Assembly (NCBI GenBank): GCA_965208735.1 | Contig: CBDBPM010000002.1 | Coordinates: 3,206,962 to 3,270,961 of the forward strand | DNA from: Candidatus Poribacteria bacterium | GTDB lineage: Bacteria; Poribacteria; WGA-4E; WGA-3G | Reading direction: 5' to 3' | DNA: 64,000 nucleotides | Shown: piece after piece, positions 10,702 to 64,000 of the stretch | How the letters are laid out: each line of letters starts with the position of its first letter | Position numbering within the stretch: the stretch's first letter is position 1 | Program-made: the position numbers and the translations under genes | The notes under the pieces: generated by a model | The model's database searches: none | What the model was told of the DNA's origin: nothing | Seen by the model: the letters and a program-made list of their open reading frames with translations, nothing else

Positions 10702-10977
10702 CTTGAAAAAGAAAATTCAAAAATTTAGAAAATTCGATAATTTATCTAAAACTAAATGGCCCTGGTATAATAGGTGTATCTGCTCAACAGAAGTTGCCAC
10801 CTGGCACCTGTCAGTGTTTTCGTCCACGCTTCATAATGGACAAAGCAGATGCAGAAAACCAGAGGCACTACGAAAAAACGTTAATAAGTGGGTTCTGCAA
10901 CAGAGATTGGCACTTTGAAAATCCGATACCTTAATGTTACGGTACCGTCCAATAACAAAGCTTTCAGGAGGCTGATT

Positions 10978-11712
10978 ATGATGATGTTAAAGCGAGGTTT
11001 GGCATTCAGCTGTGGACTTTTGTTTCTTTTCGGGCTTAATGCGTTTTGCGACGTGTGGTACAGTGAGAATTTTGACGACTTCAAAGATGGTGACATCGCT
11101 GGGCAAGATGAATGGAAAACGGCAATGAACCAAAAGACTTGCCAAATTGGCAGCAAGGTGAAACGGGGTGACACAGGCAAAAGCATTCTGGTCACAGAAA
11201 ACACAATGGTCACGAGAAGTTTTGAAGGCACCCATGATGGCATTCAGTATGTTTCATTATTCACGCAGCGGGAAAAGGGCGCGGGTCTAATGCTGTTTTA
11301 TATCGGTGGAGATGCCATCAAGTGGGGCGGAGCAGCCGTATTTAATTTTCAGGCGGATGCCACTATCCATGCGCTCGACGGCACTACAGGACAACAAGTA
11401 GCGCAGGGGAAATTCGGTGAATGGCATCATTTCCGCATCGTGCTCGACTTTAAAGACAGATCTTATGATTTTTACGTCGATGACGAACAAGTCGCCGATG
11501 ATTTCGGTTTTAGAGGTGAGGGTGGCAAAGGCGGCGTGAATCCCGAACTCAGCTGGATCTTCTTCGGTTGGGACCACCCCGAGGCTCTGACCAATTATAT
11601 TGATGACATTGAAATGGGAGACGGTGAGGGCGAAACGGCTGGAAAACCGCAAGCGGTTTCCGCCTCAGACAAACTCACGACCTCTTGGGGAAGAATCAAG
11701 CGACGATTGTAG
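10978..11712 (+). CDS. Exported lectin/LamG-like beta-sandwich protein with C-terminal KLTTSWGRIK tail
   Basis: RBS AGGAGG, signal peptide, W.HFRI..D..Y.FYVD jelly-roll pattern, ends AVSASDKLTTSWGRIKRRL. Confidence 0.7.
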   Translation: MMMLKRGLAFSCGLLFLFGLNAFCDVWYSENFDDFKDGDIAGQDEWKTAMNQKTCQIGSKVKRGDTGKSILVTENTMVTRSFEGTHDGIQYVSLFTQREKGAGLMLFYIGGDAIKWGGAAVFNFQADATIHALDGTTGQQVAQGKFGEWHHFRIVLDFKDRSYDFYVDDEQVADDFGFRGEGGKGGVNPELSWIFFGWDHPEALTNYIDDIEMGDGEGETAGKPQAVSASDKLTTSWGRIKRRL

Positions 11713-58993: not shown

Positions 58994-59897
58994 CTTCTTT
59001 ATACAATTGTCCCTGAGCCAGACAACCTACGTATCTCCTATTTATCCGCCGATGGCAATACGTTCGTTCCAGTTCAAGGGGTCCCTATTTTGGGTGAGAA
59101 AGATCTCTCCACTGCTGTGTTGAAAGAGATCGCAGAAGCACAAGGCATTCACTTTTCGGGTAATCAGAAAAGCGATCGTAATTTACTACATAAATTGCGT
59201 GTTACTGAAGACCATAGGAAAGTCGGCGCGTTTGCAGTCAGCGGTGGAACATTCTATGTGGAATACAAGCGGAAACTTTTCAAGTGGAAACCCGGCGATC
59301 CTGAATGGAAAAATACCGGATTAATCGATACCGGTCCGCATGCGAATGACGGTTCAAAAAGCGGGTTTAAATTGGCAATCTCAGCGGAAACCGTCTACGT
59401 CGGTAAGCGAGATGGCAGGCTATTCCAGTCGCTTGATGACGGCGACAGTTGGCGCGACATTACACCGAGCCTGCCCCTGCGTTTTACCCAGTTCAAGGAG
59501 ATCGTCTTTGTCGATTCAACGGCTTACGTCGCAACGGACAGGGGTATTTTAACTTCACAAACCGGCGCATATTGGCGTGTACTGACCGATAGCGCGGGCG
59601 AGCGTATCCTCATAGACACCTTCGCTGTTGATGGTACCACAATTTATGGTGCCGGTAATGCCGGTGTCTATCGTTTAGATGACCGTAGACAATCGGAGCA
59701 AATTTTTCCAAGTGTTCCTGATAAGGTCTTATCTCTCGTTGTTAAGAACGACACACTTTATATTATCACCAAAGGCAGCGGGATGTTTCAGATTCCCGTT
59801 GAAGGAGAAGGGCAGAGTTTAGTTCGCAAATAGGCATAATTCCGTGATTTTGCGTAAGTCCTATGAGTGTTCGCTTAGAACTGAGGTGACAAATGCT

Positions 59898-60644
59898 ATG
59901 AAATTTCTAATTATTGTAACAGTTCTGTCTTTATCTCCTGTATCTGTTTTTGCAGGTACATTTCTGGATACCTTTGAGGACGGAAATTTGGACGGATGGC
60001 GGGAAGTTGTTCCGTGGGATAGGGAGCCGGGGTCTTGGGAGATTGTTGCTGGTGGACTTCACGGGGCAGTTCATGATGGGTATCCGCGTCTATTCACAAC
60101 TGGGGATGATACGTGGAAGGATTATACAGTCGAATTTGATGTCAGGCCCCTTAAAAAGCACGGTCGTCCAACTATTTCGATTGCGGCGCGGATTCAGGAG
60201 AAATGGTTGGTGGAGTGCAGTCTTATGGAACCAGTAGTTGTGTTGCCTGGTGGTGCCAATGCACCTGAAAAAGGTTGGGTGTTTTGTTCCGCTGGCAATT
60301 TGCACCGTGCAAAAGCTGATCTGCTTTTCTTTGACCCGCATCCACTTTTAAAATTAAACAGATGGGCACACTTCAAGTTAAGCGTTGAAGGCGATATCTT
60401 CACCTTCTGGATTAATGGTGAGCTGGTGATGGAACCTACGGAACTTCGTATTATTAGGAACCGTGAAGGCTTTGAGGACTTTCCTGAGTTTCAGACCGGG
60501 GGTGTCGGTATCGGTCTCTCGAATTATACGGCGCGCTTTGATAACGTCACTGTTACAGGGGATAGCATTCCCGACAGCGGCGCGTTCGCCGTAACGCCCC
60601 CAGGAAAACTTGCGACAACCTGGGGAAACTTGAAAAAATTTTAG
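59898..60644 (+). CDS. Exported DUF1080/lectin-like protein with KLATTWGNLK tail
   Basis: Signal peptide; TTGDDTW.DYT..FDV; W.H.KL; GGVG.G...FDN. Confidence 0.8.
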   Translation: MKFLIIVTVLSLSPVSVFAGTFLDTFEDGNLDGWREVVPWDREPGSWEIVAGGLHGAVHDGYPRLFTTGDDTWKDYTVEFDVRPLKKHGRPTISIAARIQEKWLVECSLMEPVVVLPGGANAPEKGWVFCSAGNLHRAKADLLFFDPHPLLKLNRWAHFKLSVEGDIFTFWINGELVMEPTELRIIRNREGFEDFPEFQTGGVGIGLSNYTARFDNVTVTGDSIPDSGAFAVTPPGKLATTWGNLKKF

Positions 60645-60678
60645 CGTTAACAGCGATAGCATCAAAAGGAGAATTATT

Positions 60679-61422
60679 ATGAAATCTGTGATGATTGTAG
60701 CCATCCTTTTCCTCCTACCTCTTTCTGTGTGGGCAGGCACGTTTTTAGAAACCTTTGATGGCAAAGAGTTGGACGGATGGCAGCAAATTTGGGCGGATAA
60801 GGGACCCGCTGTCTGGGAAATTGTTGATGATGAACTGCACGCAGAAAGTCGTGAGGCGTATATTCATTTACTCACAACTGGGGATGACACGTGGGAAGAC
60901 TATACTATGGCGTTTGATGTCAAACCCGTGAAAAAACACGGTATTGGCGGTATCTCGATCGCTGTGCGGGTTGATGGAAATTGGTTAGTTTACTGCAGTA
61001 TTTATGATCCCGTGATTATAAGGGGTGATGATCCCCCGTTTCAAGAGAGACGAATAGGTTGTCACGCTGCCGGTTTGCACCTGCCACCACATGTTATCCT
61101 TATCACTGAACCGCACCCACTTTTAAGATTAAACAGATGGTCCCATCTGAAGTTAAGTGCTGAAGGCGATATCTTTACCTTCTGGATTGATGGTGAGCAG
61201 GTCATGGCACCGACGCAACTGCGAATCTTCAGGCAGCAGATTGATGTCTTTGCTGATTTTCCCGATTTTCAGACCGGGGGTGTCGGTTTTGGTCTCTGGA
61301 ACTATACGGCAATCTTTGATAACATCACTGTCACGGGGGATAGCGTTCCCAACAGCGGTGATTTCGCCGTAACACCCCAAGAAAAACTGGCGACAACTTG
61401 GGGACACTTGAAGAAATTTTAG
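60679..61422 (+). CDS. Exported DUF1080/lectin-like protein, tandem paralog
   Basis: Aligns along its length with the preceding ORF; ends KLATTWGHLKKF. Confidence 0.8.
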   Translation: MKSVMIVAILFLLPLSVWAGTFLETFDGKELDGWQQIWADKGPAVWEIVDDELHAESREAYIHLLTTGDDTWEDYTMAFDVKPVKKHGIGGISIAVRVDGNWLVYCSIYDPVIIRGDDPPFQERRIGCHAAGLHLPPHVILITEPHPLLRLNRWSHLKLSAEGDIFTFWIDGEQVMAPTQLRIFRQQIDVFADFPDFQTGGVGFGLWNYTAIFDNITVTGDSVPNSGDFAVTPQEKLATTWGHLKKF

Positions 61423-62155
61423 ATACCTAATTTATTGGAGAATCTAAAAATGAAACGGACCTATACAGTCTTTGGCATAGCACTACTGCTGAGTCTATTT
61501 CTTTTCAGCATAAATGCTTGGGCGGATACATATATTTCCTTCAGTTCCAATCGAACTGGGAACTCTGACATCTATGTCATGGATATATTTGGAAACAATC
61601 TACGCAACTTGACGAATCACCCCGCTTATGATGGTGACGTAACATGGTCACCGGACGGGGATTCTTTCGCTTTTGTGTCGAACCGGGATGGACACCGCGA
61701 TATCTACATTATGGATGTTGATGGGGTAGAAACTCGACGATTGACAGATCATCCAGAGGAGGCTACCCAACCTGACTGGTCGCCTGATGGACATTGGATC
61801 GTATTCACATCGGACAGAGCGAGCAGAGAAAACTATGATATCTACAAAATAAATGTTAACGGTAGAAATCTACAACGGCTCACTAACAATAGAGCATACG
61901 ATATGAGCCCGGTATGGTCGCCAGACGGGAAACAGATTGCTTTCTCTTCGCATCGCGATGGAAGTTGGGGTATCTTTGTGATGAATGCCAACGGGAAACA
62001 TCTTAGACGCGTTACACAAGCAGAGGTTGGAGGGATATCTCCGAGCTGGTCGCCAGACGGGAAACAGATTGCTTATCCAATTCTTCGGTGTCAAAACCCC
62101 CTTGCTTTAGCTGGGGGATGTAGACACCGCCTCCTATATTGTGCTAAAAAAACAC

Positions 62156-62184
62156 TTGACTTTTGGTCTAAAATTTTGTATGAT
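62156..62184 (+). promoter_or_regulatory. Sigma70 promoter inside the element
   Basis: TTGACT-17-TATGAT. Confidence 0.8.
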
Positions 62185-62190
62185 ATTACT

Positions 62191-62640
62191 ATCTACGGGT
62201 TAGGATACGCGACTTTCAGTTTAACTCTGATTGATCCTAACCACCCCTTCGCGGGGGTTGCGTAGACGTAGAACCGAAGCTACAAAAAGGACACATTAAA
62301 CTACCTTGAAATATAGGCAATCCCCAAATCTTGCGAGGTTTGGATGTCCAAGTTCTGACGTAGGAAATACCTACCAGAAGTATCGGTCGCTTCCGACGGT
62401 TTCAGGAAGTTTCCGTAGTGTGCTAAATGGTCACACTTCCATTCAAGAGTGTTGACAGCATGACCCGCACCTTGTTTTCGCGAACATGTTGCCTTAGCTT
62501 AGACCTAAGGAATCTACCTATAAGGTAGTCAGATGGCCCCATACCGTTAAACCTCATGTGGAAGTGATGGTAAAGGTTGAGAAACTCGCTTGGGAGTTCT
62601 TTCAAAGAATCCCCCAAGCTTCAGCTGGGGGAGCGGTCAA
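62191..62640 (+). ncRNA. Candidate ~450-nt highly structured RNA carried by the element
   Basis: More than 10 helices starting at the predicted transcription start; G-U wobbles favour the + strand; no credible ORF. Confidence 0.65.
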
Positions 62641-63071
62641 TCTGCAGGTTTTGCGGGCAGTGGTATCTACGTCATGGATATGCGTGGGAAAGATTTGCGC
62701 CGCGTGACACCTATGGGTATTTGGAGTCGGCATCCGGTGTGGTCACCCGATGGTGATTGGATTGCCTACGATATGGAACCTGAAAAGCAGTGGGGCAACC
62801 CGAAGGAGTTGGATCAAAACATTTATATCGTCCGCGCTGACGGAGGTAGACCTCGCCAAATCACAGTGGATGCGGAAAAAGATCGTGATCCTGCCTGGGT
62901 ACCGGAGGCGTTTTTCTCTGTATCCCCGAATGCGGAGATGCAGACGACGCTCTGGGGTAGACTCAAGCAAACCGACAATTAGGGGCACCTTGCCAATGGG
63001 AGTAGAGTCATGAACCGAAACGAACGTCCTTTATCAGAAATGATGGCTTGAATCATTTAGGAGAAGCAGGT

Positions 63072-64000
63072 ATGAAAGTGGTGTTGATTTTTTGTTTAAT
63101 GCTTTTGGTGCTGATGTTTGGGGGGGTGTGTCAGGTTTTTGCCGAAGCCCCGAAGACCCCGAAAATCCTATTTACCTCCAGACGGGACGCGAATCTGGAG
63201 GTGTACATGATGAATCCTGACGGTTCCGAACAGGTCAACCTCACGCAGCATCCCGCTATTGACCTTCAGGCAGCTTGGTCGCCGACCGGTGAGCAGATTC
63301 TGTTCGTCTCGGATCGCGGGGGCAAGAGAGACCTGTATGTGATGGATGCCGATGGTGGGAATGTCCGCCGCGTCTTCAAGCAAAAAATAGATGTTTGGAG
63401 AACAGCACCTACATGGTCGTCCGATAGCAAACAGTTTGCTTACCAGTGCGTGGACTGGAGCTTTATCAAGAACGGTCTCTATCTTGGGACGTTTGGAGAA
63501 GAAGATGACGAACGCATCGCGAATTACAGTTATCCGGCGTGGTCTCCCGATGGTTCAGAAATTGCTGGTTCTATAGCGCATAAACTGGGGTCTCGACTTA
63601 TGTTTATCAACGTCCGCACACGCGAGACGGAACAACCGCTCCCGGATGAAGCACTCCTATTTCAATTCGATCCGTCCTGGTCCGCTGCAGGGGACAGACT
63701 TGCGTTTTCAGGGAACAGGCATCCGTTGCCGGTGATCTTGGATCGGGAGCTGCACCGCGTATGGAAAAACAAACAGGCGATCTACATCGTTAACCGAGAC
63801 GGCACGGGGCTGCGGCAGCTTGTTGATGAAGCGGGCCCCGATGCGGAGTTTCCTGTGTTATCGCCGGATGGCTCGGAAGTGGTTTATACACAGGGATCCC
63901 AAATTTTCAAAGTTGATGTCAACAGCGGGGTTCGGACACTGTTGACACCTGTTGGGCAAAATGTTGGTGGGGATTGGTTTGATCCTAACTATACCTTGCC
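63072..64000 (+). CDS. Exported TolB-like (PD40) protein, paralog of 54780..55805, running off the right edge
   Basis: MKVVLIFCLMLLVLMFGGVCQVFAEAPKTPKILFTSRRD...; open to the window end at DWFDPNYTL. Confidence 0.85.
   Translation, partial: MKVVLIFCLMLLVLMFGGVCQVFAEAPKTPKILFTSRRDANLEVYMMNPDGSEQVNLTQHPAIDLQAAWSPTGEQILFVSDRGGKRDLYVMDADGGNVRRVFKQKIDVWRTAPTWSSDSKQFAYQCVDWSFIKNGLYLGTFGEEDDERIANYSYPAWSPDGSEIAGSIAHKLGSRLMFINVRTRETEQPLPDEALLFQFDPSWSAAGDRLAFSGNRHPLPVILDRELHRVWKNKQAIYIVNRDGTGLRQLVDEAGPDAEFPVLSPDGSEVVYTQGSQIFKVDVNSGVRTLLTPVGQNVGGDWFDPNYTL

What the first reader, a model, noticed from the sequence alone, without database searches (positions are those of the whole stretch)
62077..62640. 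IS200/IS605-ended element whose only cargo is a promoter and a ~450-nt structured RNA
Seen: a 564-bp insert splits a TolB-like gene exactly (IAY|SAG) after TTAT (62073-62076) with no target duplication. The right end is GAAT-hairpin-TCAA and the left end is AAAA-hairpin. Inside is TTGACT-17-TATGAT, and from about 62191 the sequence is almost continuously paired: TCTACG 62192/CGTAGA 62261, GGTTAGGAT 62198/ATCCTAACC 62234, ACCCCT-tcgc-GGGGGT, GGACA 62289/TGTCC 62345 enclosing CCAAATCT-tgcg-AGGTTTGG, TTCTG..GTAGG-aaata-CCTAC-CAGAA, GGTCA 62429/TGACC 62461, TGTTT-tcgc-GAACA, CCTTAG/CTAAGG, CTACCT-ata-AGGTAG. G-U wobbles work only on the + strand. Known: IS608 has right guide GAAT with cleavage site TCAA, and left guide AAAG with target TTAC; guide-target pairing predicts that AAAA selects TTAT, as found here. 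TnpB omega-RNAs are transcribed through the right end and take their guide from the 3' flank. Inference: this is not a simple deleted IS but a mobile RNA gene moved by TnpA in trans. It may be an unusually long stand-alone omega/guide RNA (guide TCTGCAGGTTTTGCGG..., TAM TTAT, i.e. aimed at the empty allele) or an undescribed large ncRNA or ribozyme.
Basis: partly seen in the sequence, partly recalled or inferred. Interest (0 to 1): 0.9.

Follow-up and report, generated by a model that had tools for sequence, protein, structure and literature searches.

The report
Mobile stand-alone TnpB guide-RNA element
This is a 564-bp protein-less jumping element of sponge-symbiont bacteria that keeps only its ends, a promoter and a roughly 450-nt folded RNA of the kind that guides the transposon nuclease TnpB; the kind is known, but this family carries an unusual extra 5' RNA domain.

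Summary
Window 62077-62640 is an ORF-less IS200/IS605 element (a PATE). It has 4 identical copies and 2-3 diverged ones in this genome. It sits precisely 3' of TTAT with no target duplication, and 5 of 5 related genomes carry the uninterrupted TolB-like allele. Sixty-nine related copies, all ORF-less where inspected, were found in Candidatus Poribacteria genomes.

The cargo is a conserved sigma-70 promoter plus a ~450-nt RNA with strong covariation: 108 pairs, 90% paired against 74% in shuffles and 35-44% in slid controls.

The 3' 290 nt are homologous to the omega-RNA region at the 3' end of tnpB in tnpA-tnpB elements of the same genome. They include the pseudoknot made by nucleotides -6 to -2.

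The 5' 95 nt (D1) are not new cargo. D1 is the pseudoknotted 5' leader found upstream of tnpB in tnpB-only elements. The element therefore has the layout of a tnpB IS that lost its ORF.

There is no Rfam match, no intron signature and no orientation bias in host genes.

Stand-alone omega RNAs and omega-RNA-bearing PATEs are already in print, so this is a new variant of a known kind. The new points are the retained leader, a covarying long-range pairing between D1 and an omega-RNA hairpin loop, and reuse of D1 upstream of host genes.

The parts
62073..62076 (+). TTAT target tetranucleotide, the presumed TnpB TAM
   Evidence: All 7 G000 copies follow TTAT (6) or TTAC (1). 45 of 45 copies of the 589-bp family follow TTAT when the left end is located independently. 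Empty sites in 5 of 5 relatives read TTAT followed directly by the right flank.
62077..62132 (+). Left end: guide AAAA 62093-62096, imperfect hairpin 62097-62117, outer stem CGGTGTC 62086-92 / GACACCG 62123-29
   Evidence: Sequence. 98% identical over 53 nt to the left end of the tnpA-tnpB element at G000:C2:3015880.
62156..62184 (+). Sigma-70-type promoter, TTGACT-17-TATGAT
   Evidence: The -35 and -10 boxes are kept at the same distance from the first helix in the family members.
62191..62283 (+). D1, the pseudoknotted 5' domain. H1 62192-97/62261-66; H2 62198-206/62234-42; H3; H4 62244-47/62254-57; PK1 S 62208-12 / L4 62249-53; H5 62268-71/62280-83. The H1 3' strand and the H5 5' strand form a tandem repeat b1 b2.
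   Evidence: Covariation. A model built from PATE copies alone finds the 5' leaders of tnpB-only elements (E 0.0018, 0.002 and 0.018).
62284..62352 (+). D2, a variable linker with local hairpins. At least two alternative modules occur in the family.
   Evidence: Not alignable across subfamilies. RNA contigs of other variants replace 62274-62350 (table 5).
62353..62640 (+). Omega-RNA-like scaffold. H6 62353-79, H7 62390-409, Hx 62420-23/62467-70, optional hairpin 62429-57, H8 62471-88 (loop L8 62477-82), H9 62492-510, H10 62514-28, helices in 62542-72, RE hairpin.
   Evidence: Nucleotide homology to the 3' end of tnpB and the omega-RNA region of IS_A and IS_D. Covariation.
62461..62466 (+). 5' strand of pseudoknot PK2; pairs with 62634-62639 (positions -7 to -2 before the element end)
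   Evidence: helix 12: 86.5% of cells paired, 2 pairs changed on both sides. IS_A has the matching variant UGACA/UGUCA (sequence). Same position as the ISDra2 omega-RNA pseudoknot (passage in PMC10097598).
62607..62640 (+). Right end: guide GAAT 62607-10, imperfect hairpin 62611-31, cleavage site TCAA 62637-40
   Evidence: Guide and last base covary in 18 of 21 members. Ends among 72 copies: TCAA 60, TCAG 8, TCAC 2, TCAT 2.
62641..62656 (+). Presumed guide segment taken from the 3' flank (TCTGCAGGTTTTGCGG). Inferred, not shown.
   Evidence: By analogy with TnpB omega RNAs. RNA-library contigs run 12 and 39 letters past the element end into flanks of other copies (table 7).
61450..62076 (+). 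5' part of the interrupted TolB-like gene
62641..62982 (+). 3' part of the interrupted TolB-like gene

Best explanation
The 564-bp insert is a non-autonomous IS200/IS605 element (a PATE). It descends from a tnpB-only element that lost its reading frame but kept every RNA and DNA signal.

Shown:
- It has left and right ends of the type recognised by the Y1 transposase TnpA, including the AAAA/TTAT and GAAT/TCAA guide-target pairs.
- It is multi-copy and was recently mobile.
- It inserts precisely 3' of TTAT without a duplication.
- It encodes no recognisable protein.
- It carries a conserved promoter, followed from about 62191 by a ~450-nt RNA whose helices are kept by compensatory changes.
- The last ~290 nt of that RNA are homologous to the omega-RNA region that overlaps the 3' end of tnpB in IS_A and IS_D elements of the same genome. 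The homology includes the pseudoknot formed by the nucleotides just before the element end.

Inferred:
- TnpA from the tnpA-tnpB elements moves it in trans.
- The RNA runs a short way into the 3' flank, which serves as the guide.
- A TnpB of the IS_A/IS_D clade loads the RNA in trans and cuts the empty site (TAM TTAT plus the flank sequence). Excised or empty alleles are then repaired from a filled copy, so the element is retained and spreads without paying for a nuclease gene.

The 5' domain D1 is the leader that precedes tnpB in full elements. There its duplicated strand b2 adjoins or contains the start codon, which suggests translational control. In the PATE, D1 is kept, and its single-stranded segment S covaries with the loop of omega-RNA hairpin H8. 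D1 therefore probably docks on, or gates, the omega-RNA fold. That role is unproven.
For: Mobility and ends:
- Copies, flanks and targets.
- Empty sites in 5 of 5 relatives. An RNA-library contig also joins 62076 to 62649 with 8 other letters (table 5).
- The left end is 98% identical to that of a tnpA-tnpB element.
- Y1_Tnp (E 1.8e-39) and OrfB_IS605 plus the Cas12f1-like TNB domain are present in that element. Its TnpB matches solved TnpB/Cas12f chains.

No coding cargo:
- tblastn of 4 transposon proteins against the element: best E 0.02 over 24 aa.
- 0 Pfam families for the 3 internal ORFs of 49-64 aa.

Family:
- An exact core pattern found 70 loci among GTDB species genomes: 69 in Candidatus Poribacteria and 1 chance hit in a Fibrobacter coding region.
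- Every cluster representative inspected has the ORF-less 510-590-bp layout.

Structure:
- 21 distinct sequences, 108 pairs. 90.3% of cells are paired, against 74.2% in shuffles (0 of 500 reach it) and 35-44% when partners are slid. 74 pairs have changes on both sides.

Omega-RNA homology:
- Local alignment to the 3' end of IS_A.
- An nhmmer profile of the PATE core hits all 5 IS_A 3' ends weakly (E 0.003-0.23).
- Alignments to IS_A and IS_D.
- Pseudoknot PK2 at -7 to -2 lies where the ISDra2 omega-RNA pseudoknot lies (PMC10097598, passage).

D1 is a tnpB leader:
- Model R1, built from PATE copies only, hits the leaders of tnpB-only elements at the expected place (L008 E 0.0018, L010 E 0.002; IS_D E 0.018).
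- It does not hit IS_A, which has no leader.

Presence in RNA libraries:
- Contigs of 4 RNA libraries from 4 studies cover 62193-62641 (X19) and 62224/62238 to 62640/41 (X15, X17, X20).

Co-occurrence:
- 46 of 54 genomes with a D1 hit also have an IS_A-clade TnpB at E<=1e-80, against 31 of 97 without a D1 hit. This is a hand tally. It assumes the same draw, because the per-genus denominators are identical. Kin are not independent.

Precedent:
- PATEs 'often encode omega RNAs' that TnpB must act on in trans (PMC10055086, Discussion passage).
- Stand-alone omega RNAs work in trans (PMC10691335, introduction passage).
Against: - No binding or cleavage by TnpB was tested, and none can be with these tools.
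- The 3' end of the RNA, and so the guide, is not shown. Contigs cannot give ends or strand.
- Presence in RNA libraries is not proof of transcription.
- Sequence similarity to the IS_A and IS_D omega regions is modest (nhmmer E 0.003 at best). The PATE scaffold carries about 75-110 extra nt that those elements lack.
- No tnpB-linked element with the exact PATE core motif was found.
- 8 of 54 D1-positive genomes show no IS_A-clade TnpB at E<=1e-80.
- Part of the covariation could have been inherited from different parent elements rather than selected within the ORF-less lineage.
- The S-L8 pairing has exceptions. In a column-fixed count, only 10 of 21 distinct S/L8 combinations are fully paired, although some failures are register shifts of the alignment.
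Confidence: 0.7

Rival explanations
1. Passive relic. The element is only an internal-deletion derivative that TnpA still moves. Its transcript has no function of its own. The conserved folds were inherited from functional parents (the tnpB leader and the omega RNA).
For: The layout equals a tnpB-only element minus its ORF. Subfamilies are mosaics of modules, so some variation may come from different parents.
Against: - The same ORF-less layout is kept in three genera of two families.
- Promoter boxes are conserved.
- Helices show many independent compensatory changes within ORF-less copies.
- Segment S of the leader covaries with a loop of the omega part (93% of cells paired, 4 of 5 pairs changed on both sides). 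IS_D, the one full-length element with both modules that was examined, lacks this pairing (by eye).
Confidence: 0.12
2. A structured non-coding RNA that works independently of TnpB, for example a regulatory or scaffold RNA of the symbiont, and merely rides in IS200/IS605 ends. D1 would be the active part.
For: - D1 also occurs without the omega part as a 5' leader of host genes: a D12-class DNA methyltransferase gene in three genomes (R1 79 and 78 bits for the two scored; Pfam E 3.7e-28) and window 10772-10883.
- No Rfam family matches.
Against: The largest and best-conserved part is homologous to tnpB-linked omega-RNA regions and keeps the guide-adjacent pseudoknot and right end. D1 precedes tnpB in full elements.
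Confidence: 0.1
3. An IStron-like self-splicing intron (group I or other ribozyme) that removes the insert from host mRNAs.
For: The window copy lies in the sense orientation inside a gene. PATEs with IStron ends are known (figure legend passage in 10.1101/2023.11.20.567912). The RNA has alternative pairings and a long-range loop contact.
Against: - No group I or II intron match, even at E<=10 with permissive filters.
- The element ends in A, not G (the terminal-G rule of group I introns is recalled, not taken from a call).
- It has its own internal promoter downstream of the would-be 5' splice site.
- Of 64 evaluable copies, 39 are intergenic, 13 sense and 12 antisense in ORFs.
- The one RNA contig that joins the flanks differs at 14 other positions plus 8 junction letters, so it is another strain's empty allele, not a spliced product.
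Confidence: 0.02

Closest known systems
Stand-alone omega RNAs and PATEs that encode omega RNAs (OMEGA systems). Sources read as passages: PMC10691335 introduction, citing earlier work; PMC10055086 Discussion.
   Same: A mobilised IS200/IS605-ended unit without nuclease or transposase, in the same genome as effector-bearing elements. It carries an omega-RNA scaffold at the right end whose guide would come from the flank.
   Different: This family has its own conserved promoter and keeps the tnpB 5' leader (D1) fused upstream, giving a ~450-nt RNA. D1 covaries with an omega-RNA hairpin loop. Trans activity is not tested here. I could not see the supplements of those papers, which may list similar architectures.
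ISDra2 TnpB omega RNA (cryo-EM structure, PMC10097598; passages read)
   Same: The scaffold ends at the transposon right end. The nucleotides just before the guide (-6 to -2) pair with a distant upstream segment to form a pseudoknot. There are several stems.
   Different: The ISDra2 scaffold seen in the structure is 116 nt. Here the homologous part is ~290 nt, with extra hairpins and a further 160 nt upstream. There is no detectable sequence similarity to any Rfam model.
tnpB-only (IS1341-like) elements of the same genome, e.g. G000:C2:3983300-3985017 (IS_D) and C2:5306393-5307803 (IS_B)
   Same: Same promoter position, same D1 leader fold (H1, H2, H3, S/L4 pseudoknot, tandem b1 b2), and an omega-RNA region and right end of the same type (IS_D).
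   Different: They carry a 387-405-aa TnpB between leader and omega RNA, and b2 adjoins or contains the start codon. The PATE has a 70-nt variable linker instead, and b2 forms a hairpin (H5).
IStron-derived PATEs and IStrons (10.1101/2023.11.20.567912; passages read)
   Same: ORF-less elements with IS605-type ends that carry structured RNA, with competition between RNA folds at the right end.
   Different: No group I intron core was detected and there is no orientation bias. Splice-site features are absent.

Membership tests
IS200/IS605 non-autonomous element (PATE) | Subterminal imperfect hairpins at both ends, each preceded by a tetranucleotide guide | tested here: met
   LE AAAA plus hairpin 62097-62117; RE GAAT plus hairpin 62611-62631. 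Guide and last base covary in 18 of 21 members.
IS200/IS605 non-autonomous element (PATE) | Insertion 3' of a specific tetranucleotide, with no target-site duplication and no terminal inverted repeats | tested here: met
   TTAT or TTAC before all 7 G000 copies. 45 of 45 for the 589-bp family. Empty sites in 5 of 5 relatives.
IS200/IS605 non-autonomous element (PATE) | No transposase or other protein gene; a cognate TnpA elsewhere in the genome | tested here: met
   (no coding signal). The tnpA-tnpB element has a left end 98% identical.
IS200/IS605 non-autonomous element (PATE) | Excision and integration by TnpA | not testable with these tools
   Inferred from 4 identical copies at different sites.
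TnpB omega RNA | Scaffold encoded at the 3' end of the element, overlapping the right end | tested here: met
   Conserved, covarying scaffold 62353-62640 that ends at the RE cleavage site.
TnpB omega RNA | Homology to the omega-RNA region of a tnpB-bearing element | tested here: met
   (E 0.003-0.23 on all 5 IS_A copies). Similarity is modest.
TnpB omega RNA | Pseudoknot formed by the nucleotides just 5' of the guide | tested here: met
   62461-66 pairs with 62634-39: 86.5% of cells paired, with compensatory changes. Compare the passage in PMC10097598.
TnpB omega RNA | Transcript continues into the 3' flank to give a ~16-nt guide | tested here: inconclusive
   RNA-library contigs extend 12 and 39 letters beyond the end into flanks of other copies. 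Contigs cannot show RNA ends.
TnpB omega RNA | Binds TnpB and directs TAM-dependent DNA cleavage | not testable with these tools
   None.
Group I intron / IStron | Group I catalytic core; terminal G; sense orientation in host genes | tested here: not met
   No Rfam intron hit at E<=10. The element ends in A. 13 sense against 12 antisense copies.
HEARO / IscB omega RNA (RF02033) | Match to the family model at or above the gathering score | tested here: not met
   17.4 bits against a gathering score of 83, on the minus strand, covering only the LE hairpin and host gene sequence.

The most novel reading that the evidence does not exclude
The RNA is not just a guide scaffold with leftovers. It would be an integrated two-domain riboregulator. 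D1 can switch between a:b1 and a:b2 pairings, and its segment S can pair either with its own loop L4 or with loop L8 of the omega scaffold. In this reading D1 gates when the omega RNA is competent to load TnpB, or sequesters it. The same D1 module would be a previously undescribed portable 5' leader that controls tnpB translation and has been exapted by host genes such as a DNA methyltransferase gene.
Probability: 0.2. Interest if true: 0.75.

Novelty: new variant of a known kind. Interest (0 to 1): 0.5.

Why it matters
This is a clear, multi-genome natural example of a guide RNA that spreads as its own mobile gene, with its own promoter, and would rely on a nuclease and a transposase encoded elsewhere. 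It bears on how OMEGA components became modular on the way to tracrRNA-like and CRISPR-like arrangements.

The family gives a covariation-supported secondary structure for a large TnpB-clade scaffold, which could help guide-RNA engineering.

D1 is a candidate new RNA motif with no Rfam match. It appears to control tnpB expression and is reused on host genes.

In one Candidatus Poribacteria genome 47 near-identical copies interrupt genes in both orientations, so the element is also a force in the genome evolution of these sponge symbionts.

Tried and rejected
- **Decayed tnpA/tnpB coding sequence.** tblastn of TnpA and three TnpB proteins of this genome against the element gave nothing below E 0.02. 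The three internal ORFs have no Pfam match. Rejected at protein level. The homology to the tnpB 3' end is at nucleotide/RNA level only.
- **Rfam.** In E-value mode on 61800-62900 all five matches fell far below their gathering scores. Nothing was found at E<=1 on four loci with full elements or the second D1 site.
- **HEARO/IscB and intron readings.** Rejected (see membership test).
- **Strand from folding energy.** Uninformative.
- **Structure-aware MAFFT (Q-INS-i).** Not installed (one search failed), so alignments are sequence-based and undercount pairs in H3, PK1 and the RE region.
- **Whole-genome search with model R1.** It missed the tnpB leaders because only part of the candidates was scored. 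They were found with filters off on the loci. The IS_C leader reached only 6.9 bits (E 3.9), so I count it as D1-like by eye only.
- **Alternative pairing of the conserved loop CUUGGG (62590-95) with the 5' strand of the RE hairpin.** 81% of cells paired, with weak covariation. Left open.
- **RNA runs.** Word depth was hundreds to thousands over about 62207-62641 in all four RNA libraries. It was 0-2 over 62133-62169, 0-10 over the host gene on both sides, and low over the left end in three runs. The tool states that depths of contigs cannot rank parts and that uncovered parts prove nothing, so I do not use these figures as evidence. The variable promoter region may also simply fail the 90% likeness cut in other strains.
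- **Adapter junction at 62191.** Adapter letters abut 62191 in two X19 contigs. The window's ATCT at 62191-94 equals what I recall as the last four letters of the Illumina adapter, so the fragment start is ambiguous (62191-62195). Other adapter junctions lie inside the RNA. This is no TSS mapping.
- **The search of earlier findings.** Closed, so no earlier findings were seen.
- **Supplementary files.** Closed. Those of PMC10055086, PMC10691335 and the IStron preprint may list comparable PATE architectures.
- **Searches for prior description.** (TnpB, PATE and stand-alone terms; Poribacteria + TnpB: 0 papers).
Full report
**1. What is there**

The window comes from a 6.2-Mb genome (G000:C2:3206962-3270961). 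Related records found with the element's core motif are titled Candidatus Poribacteria, which are sponge symbionts.

At 62077-62640 a 564-bp insert splits a TolB-like gene between ...IAY and SAG.... TTAT (62073-76) precedes it. The left end carries AAAA (62093-96) directly before an imperfect hairpin (62097-62117). The right end carries GAAT (62607-10) before an imperfect hairpin (62611-31), and the element ends in TCAA (62637-40).

Five of five orthologous loci in related genomes read ...GCTTAT|TCTGCAA... without the insert. The insertion is therefore exact and has no target duplication. A 566-nt contig of an RNA library also joins 62076 to 62649 with eight other letters between. It has 14 further differences, so it is an empty allele of another strain.

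**2. It is a mobile family**

G000 has four copies at 564/564 identity, one at 95.6%, one at 93.7%, and one mosaic copy whose last 266 nt match at 84%. Flanks differ in every copy. Six follow TTAT and one follows TTAC. All end in GGTCAA.

An exact pattern from the most conserved core found 70 loci among one-genome-per-species records. Sixty-nine are in Candidatus Poribacteria, and 47 of those are near-identical copies in one genome. One is a chance hit in a Fibrobacter coding region, which I dropped.

Boundaries could be set for 72 of 76 copies. The search required TTAT or TTAC before the left end, so that count (70 and 2) is partly circular. Locating the left end of the 589-bp family independently gave TTAT in 45 of 45. 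The last four bases were TCAA in 60 copies, TCAG in 8, TCAC in 2 and TCAT in 2. The fourth base of the right-end guide is complementary to the last base of the element in 18 of 21 distinct members.

**3. No protein cargo**

TnpA and three TnpB proteins of this genome find nothing in the element (best E 0.02 over 24 aa). The three internal ORFs of 49-64 aa have no Pfam match.

The genome holds about 35 tnpB loci. These include five IS_A elements: a Y1 TnpA plus a 412-aa TnpB, confirmed by Pfam and by matches to solved TnpB/Cas12f chains. The left end of one IS_A is 98% identical to the element's over 53 nt.

**4. The cargo is a promoter and a structured RNA**

TTGACT-17-TATGAT (62156-84) is the only sigma-70-like site in the region. 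That count alone is no more than chance. However, both boxes keep their place in all family members, 6-8 nt before the first helix.

On a sequence-based alignment of 21 distinct members, a hand-built structure of 108 pairs is 90.3% paired. Shuffles give 74.2% (0 of 500 reach the observed value) and slid controls give 35-44%. Seventy-four pairs show changes on both sides. One lies in a variable linker and is untested, and one is reassigned (see the observation check).

Rfam has no family for it.

Contigs of four RNA libraries from four studies cover 62193-62641 or 62224/62238-62641. Some run 12 and 39 letters past the end into flanks of other copies. Contigs show presence in RNA libraries. They do not show strand, ends or level.

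**5. The 3' 290 nt are an omega-RNA-type scaffold**

Region 62375-62525 aligns to the last 170 nt of IS_A, which span the 3' end of tnpB and the right end. A profile of the PATE core finds all five IS_A 3' ends, weakly (E 0.003-0.23). The same blocks align with a second TnpB element, IS_D.

The segment UGACC(C) at 62461-66 pairs with (G)GGUCA at 62634-39, which is positions -7 to -2 before the element end (86.5% of cells paired). IS_A shows the compensated version UGACA/UGUCA. In the ISDra2 TnpB structure, the nucleotides -6 to -2 likewise pair about 100 nt upstream to form the pseudoknot next to the guide (PMC10097598, passage).

The PATE scaffold is longer than those of IS_A and IS_D. It has an optional hairpin (62429-57, present in 11 of 21 members) and about 75 nt more between H10 and the right end.

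**6. The 5' 95 nt (D1) are the tnpB leader**

D1 (62191-62283) folds into H1, H2, H3 and H4. A pseudoknot forms between segment S (62208-12) and the H4 loop L4 (62249-53). A hairpin H5 follows.

A covariance model built from PATE copies alone finds, at the expected position just after the promoter, the 5' leaders of tnpB-only elements. The hits are L008 (E 0.0018), L010 (E 0.002) and IS_D (E 0.018). The model finds nothing in IS_A, which starts with tnpA.

IS_D (C2:3983300-3985017) has, in order: promoter, D1, tnpB (58% identical to the IS_A TnpB), an omega-RNA region and a right end. The PATE therefore has the architecture of such an element without its ORF.

In the full elements the 3' strand of H1 (b1) is followed by a near-copy (b2) that adjoins or contains the start codon (read by eye). 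In the PATE, strand a can pair with b1 or with b2. Both pairings covary, and a:b2 is paired in 100% of cells. This points to a translational switch in the parents. That is an inference.

**7. A link between the two domains**

Segment S is complementary to L4 and also to the loop L8 of omega hairpin H8 (62477-82), 270 nt away. S:L8 is paired in 93.3% of cells, and four of five pairs change on both sides. Examples of matched S/L8 variants are CGCGA/UCGCG, UGUAA/UUACA, GACAA/UUGUC, UGUGA/UCACA, UGUUA/UAACA and UACGA/UCGUA.

Adding 19 further copies from three genera gave a stricter, column-fixed count. Ten of 21 distinct S/L8 combinations are fully paired, against 9% of cross-combinations. Several failures are register shifts, and some are real 4-of-5 cases in mosaic elements.

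IS_D lacks this complementarity (by eye). I read this as evidence that the ORF-less lineage evolved as one integrated RNA. What the contact does is unknown.

**8. Not an intron**

There is no intron model match and the last base is A. Of 64 evaluable copies, 39 are intergenic, 13 lie sense and 12 antisense in reading frames restored by removing the element.

**9. Distribution**

D1 hits (E<=0.01) occur in 54 of 151 genomes of the phylum. They fall in four genera of two families. Most inspected loci are PATEs.

Three loci in one genus have promoter plus D1 in front of a D12-class adenine methyltransferase gene, with no transposon ends. The window itself has a weaker D1-like leader at 10772-10883, before a host gene.

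An IS_A-clade TnpB (E<=1e-80) is present in 46 of the 54 D1-positive genomes and in 31 of the 97 others (hand tally; related genomes are not independent).

**10. Comparison with what is known**

Stand-alone, mobilised omega RNAs that work in trans, and PATEs that often encode omega RNAs, are already described (passages in PMC10691335 and PMC10055086). No paper in the library holds both 'Poribacteria' and 'TnpB'.

The finding is therefore a new variant of a known kind. It is well supported as an element and as a structured RNA. The step from RNA to TnpB-guided homing is inferred.

The new points are:
- the retained tnpB leader;
- its covarying contact with the omega scaffold;
- its reuse upstream of host genes;
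- the size of the family in these symbionts.

Noticed in passing
window 10740-10980: A TGGTATAAT-type promoter is followed by a degenerate D1-like leader (R1 29.8-29.9 bits, E 8.7e-5 and 3.4e-4), 95 nt upstream of a host gene starting at 10978. There are no transposon ends. It looks like an exapted remnant that supplies a promoter and 5' UTR.
   Followed up: partly
L159, L160, L161 (three genomes of genus g9), about 1460-2520 in locus coordinates: Promoter plus a strong D1 match (79 and 78 bits for L159 and L160; L161 read by eye) form the 5' leader of a D12-class N6-adenine DNA methyltransferase gene (Pfam E 3.7e-28). There is no LE, RE or omega part.
   Followed up: partly
G000:C2:4499750-4501750 (L170): An apparently intact TnpB (GTG start; 59% identical to the IS_A TnpB; RuvC D/E/D motifs seen by eye). 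It has no D1 leader, no recognisable omega-RNA region and no right end. It is a candidate user of stand-alone guide RNAs.
   Followed up: no
G000:C2:3931940-3932406 (-) and C2:5356830-5357299 (-) (L133, L132): A second ORF-less family of about 470 bp. It has a similar left end and promoter, no D1, and a right end like that of the IS_B tnpB-only elements (...GGGGTCTATCAC).
   Followed up: no
G000 whole genome: About 35 tnpB loci in at least four sequence groups, but few tnpA genes, in a 6.2-Mb symbiont genome (tblastn).
   Followed up: partly
window 62476-62483: In this subfamily the H8 loop reads UCGCGA, a palindrome. Two RNA molecules could therefore also kiss through L8. Other subfamilies lack the palindrome.
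   Followed up: no
window 59844-61422 and 63048-64000: Two tandem paralogous genes of 266 and 247 aa lie upstream of the interrupted gene, and a second TolB-like paralogue lies downstream. None was examined.
   Followed up: no
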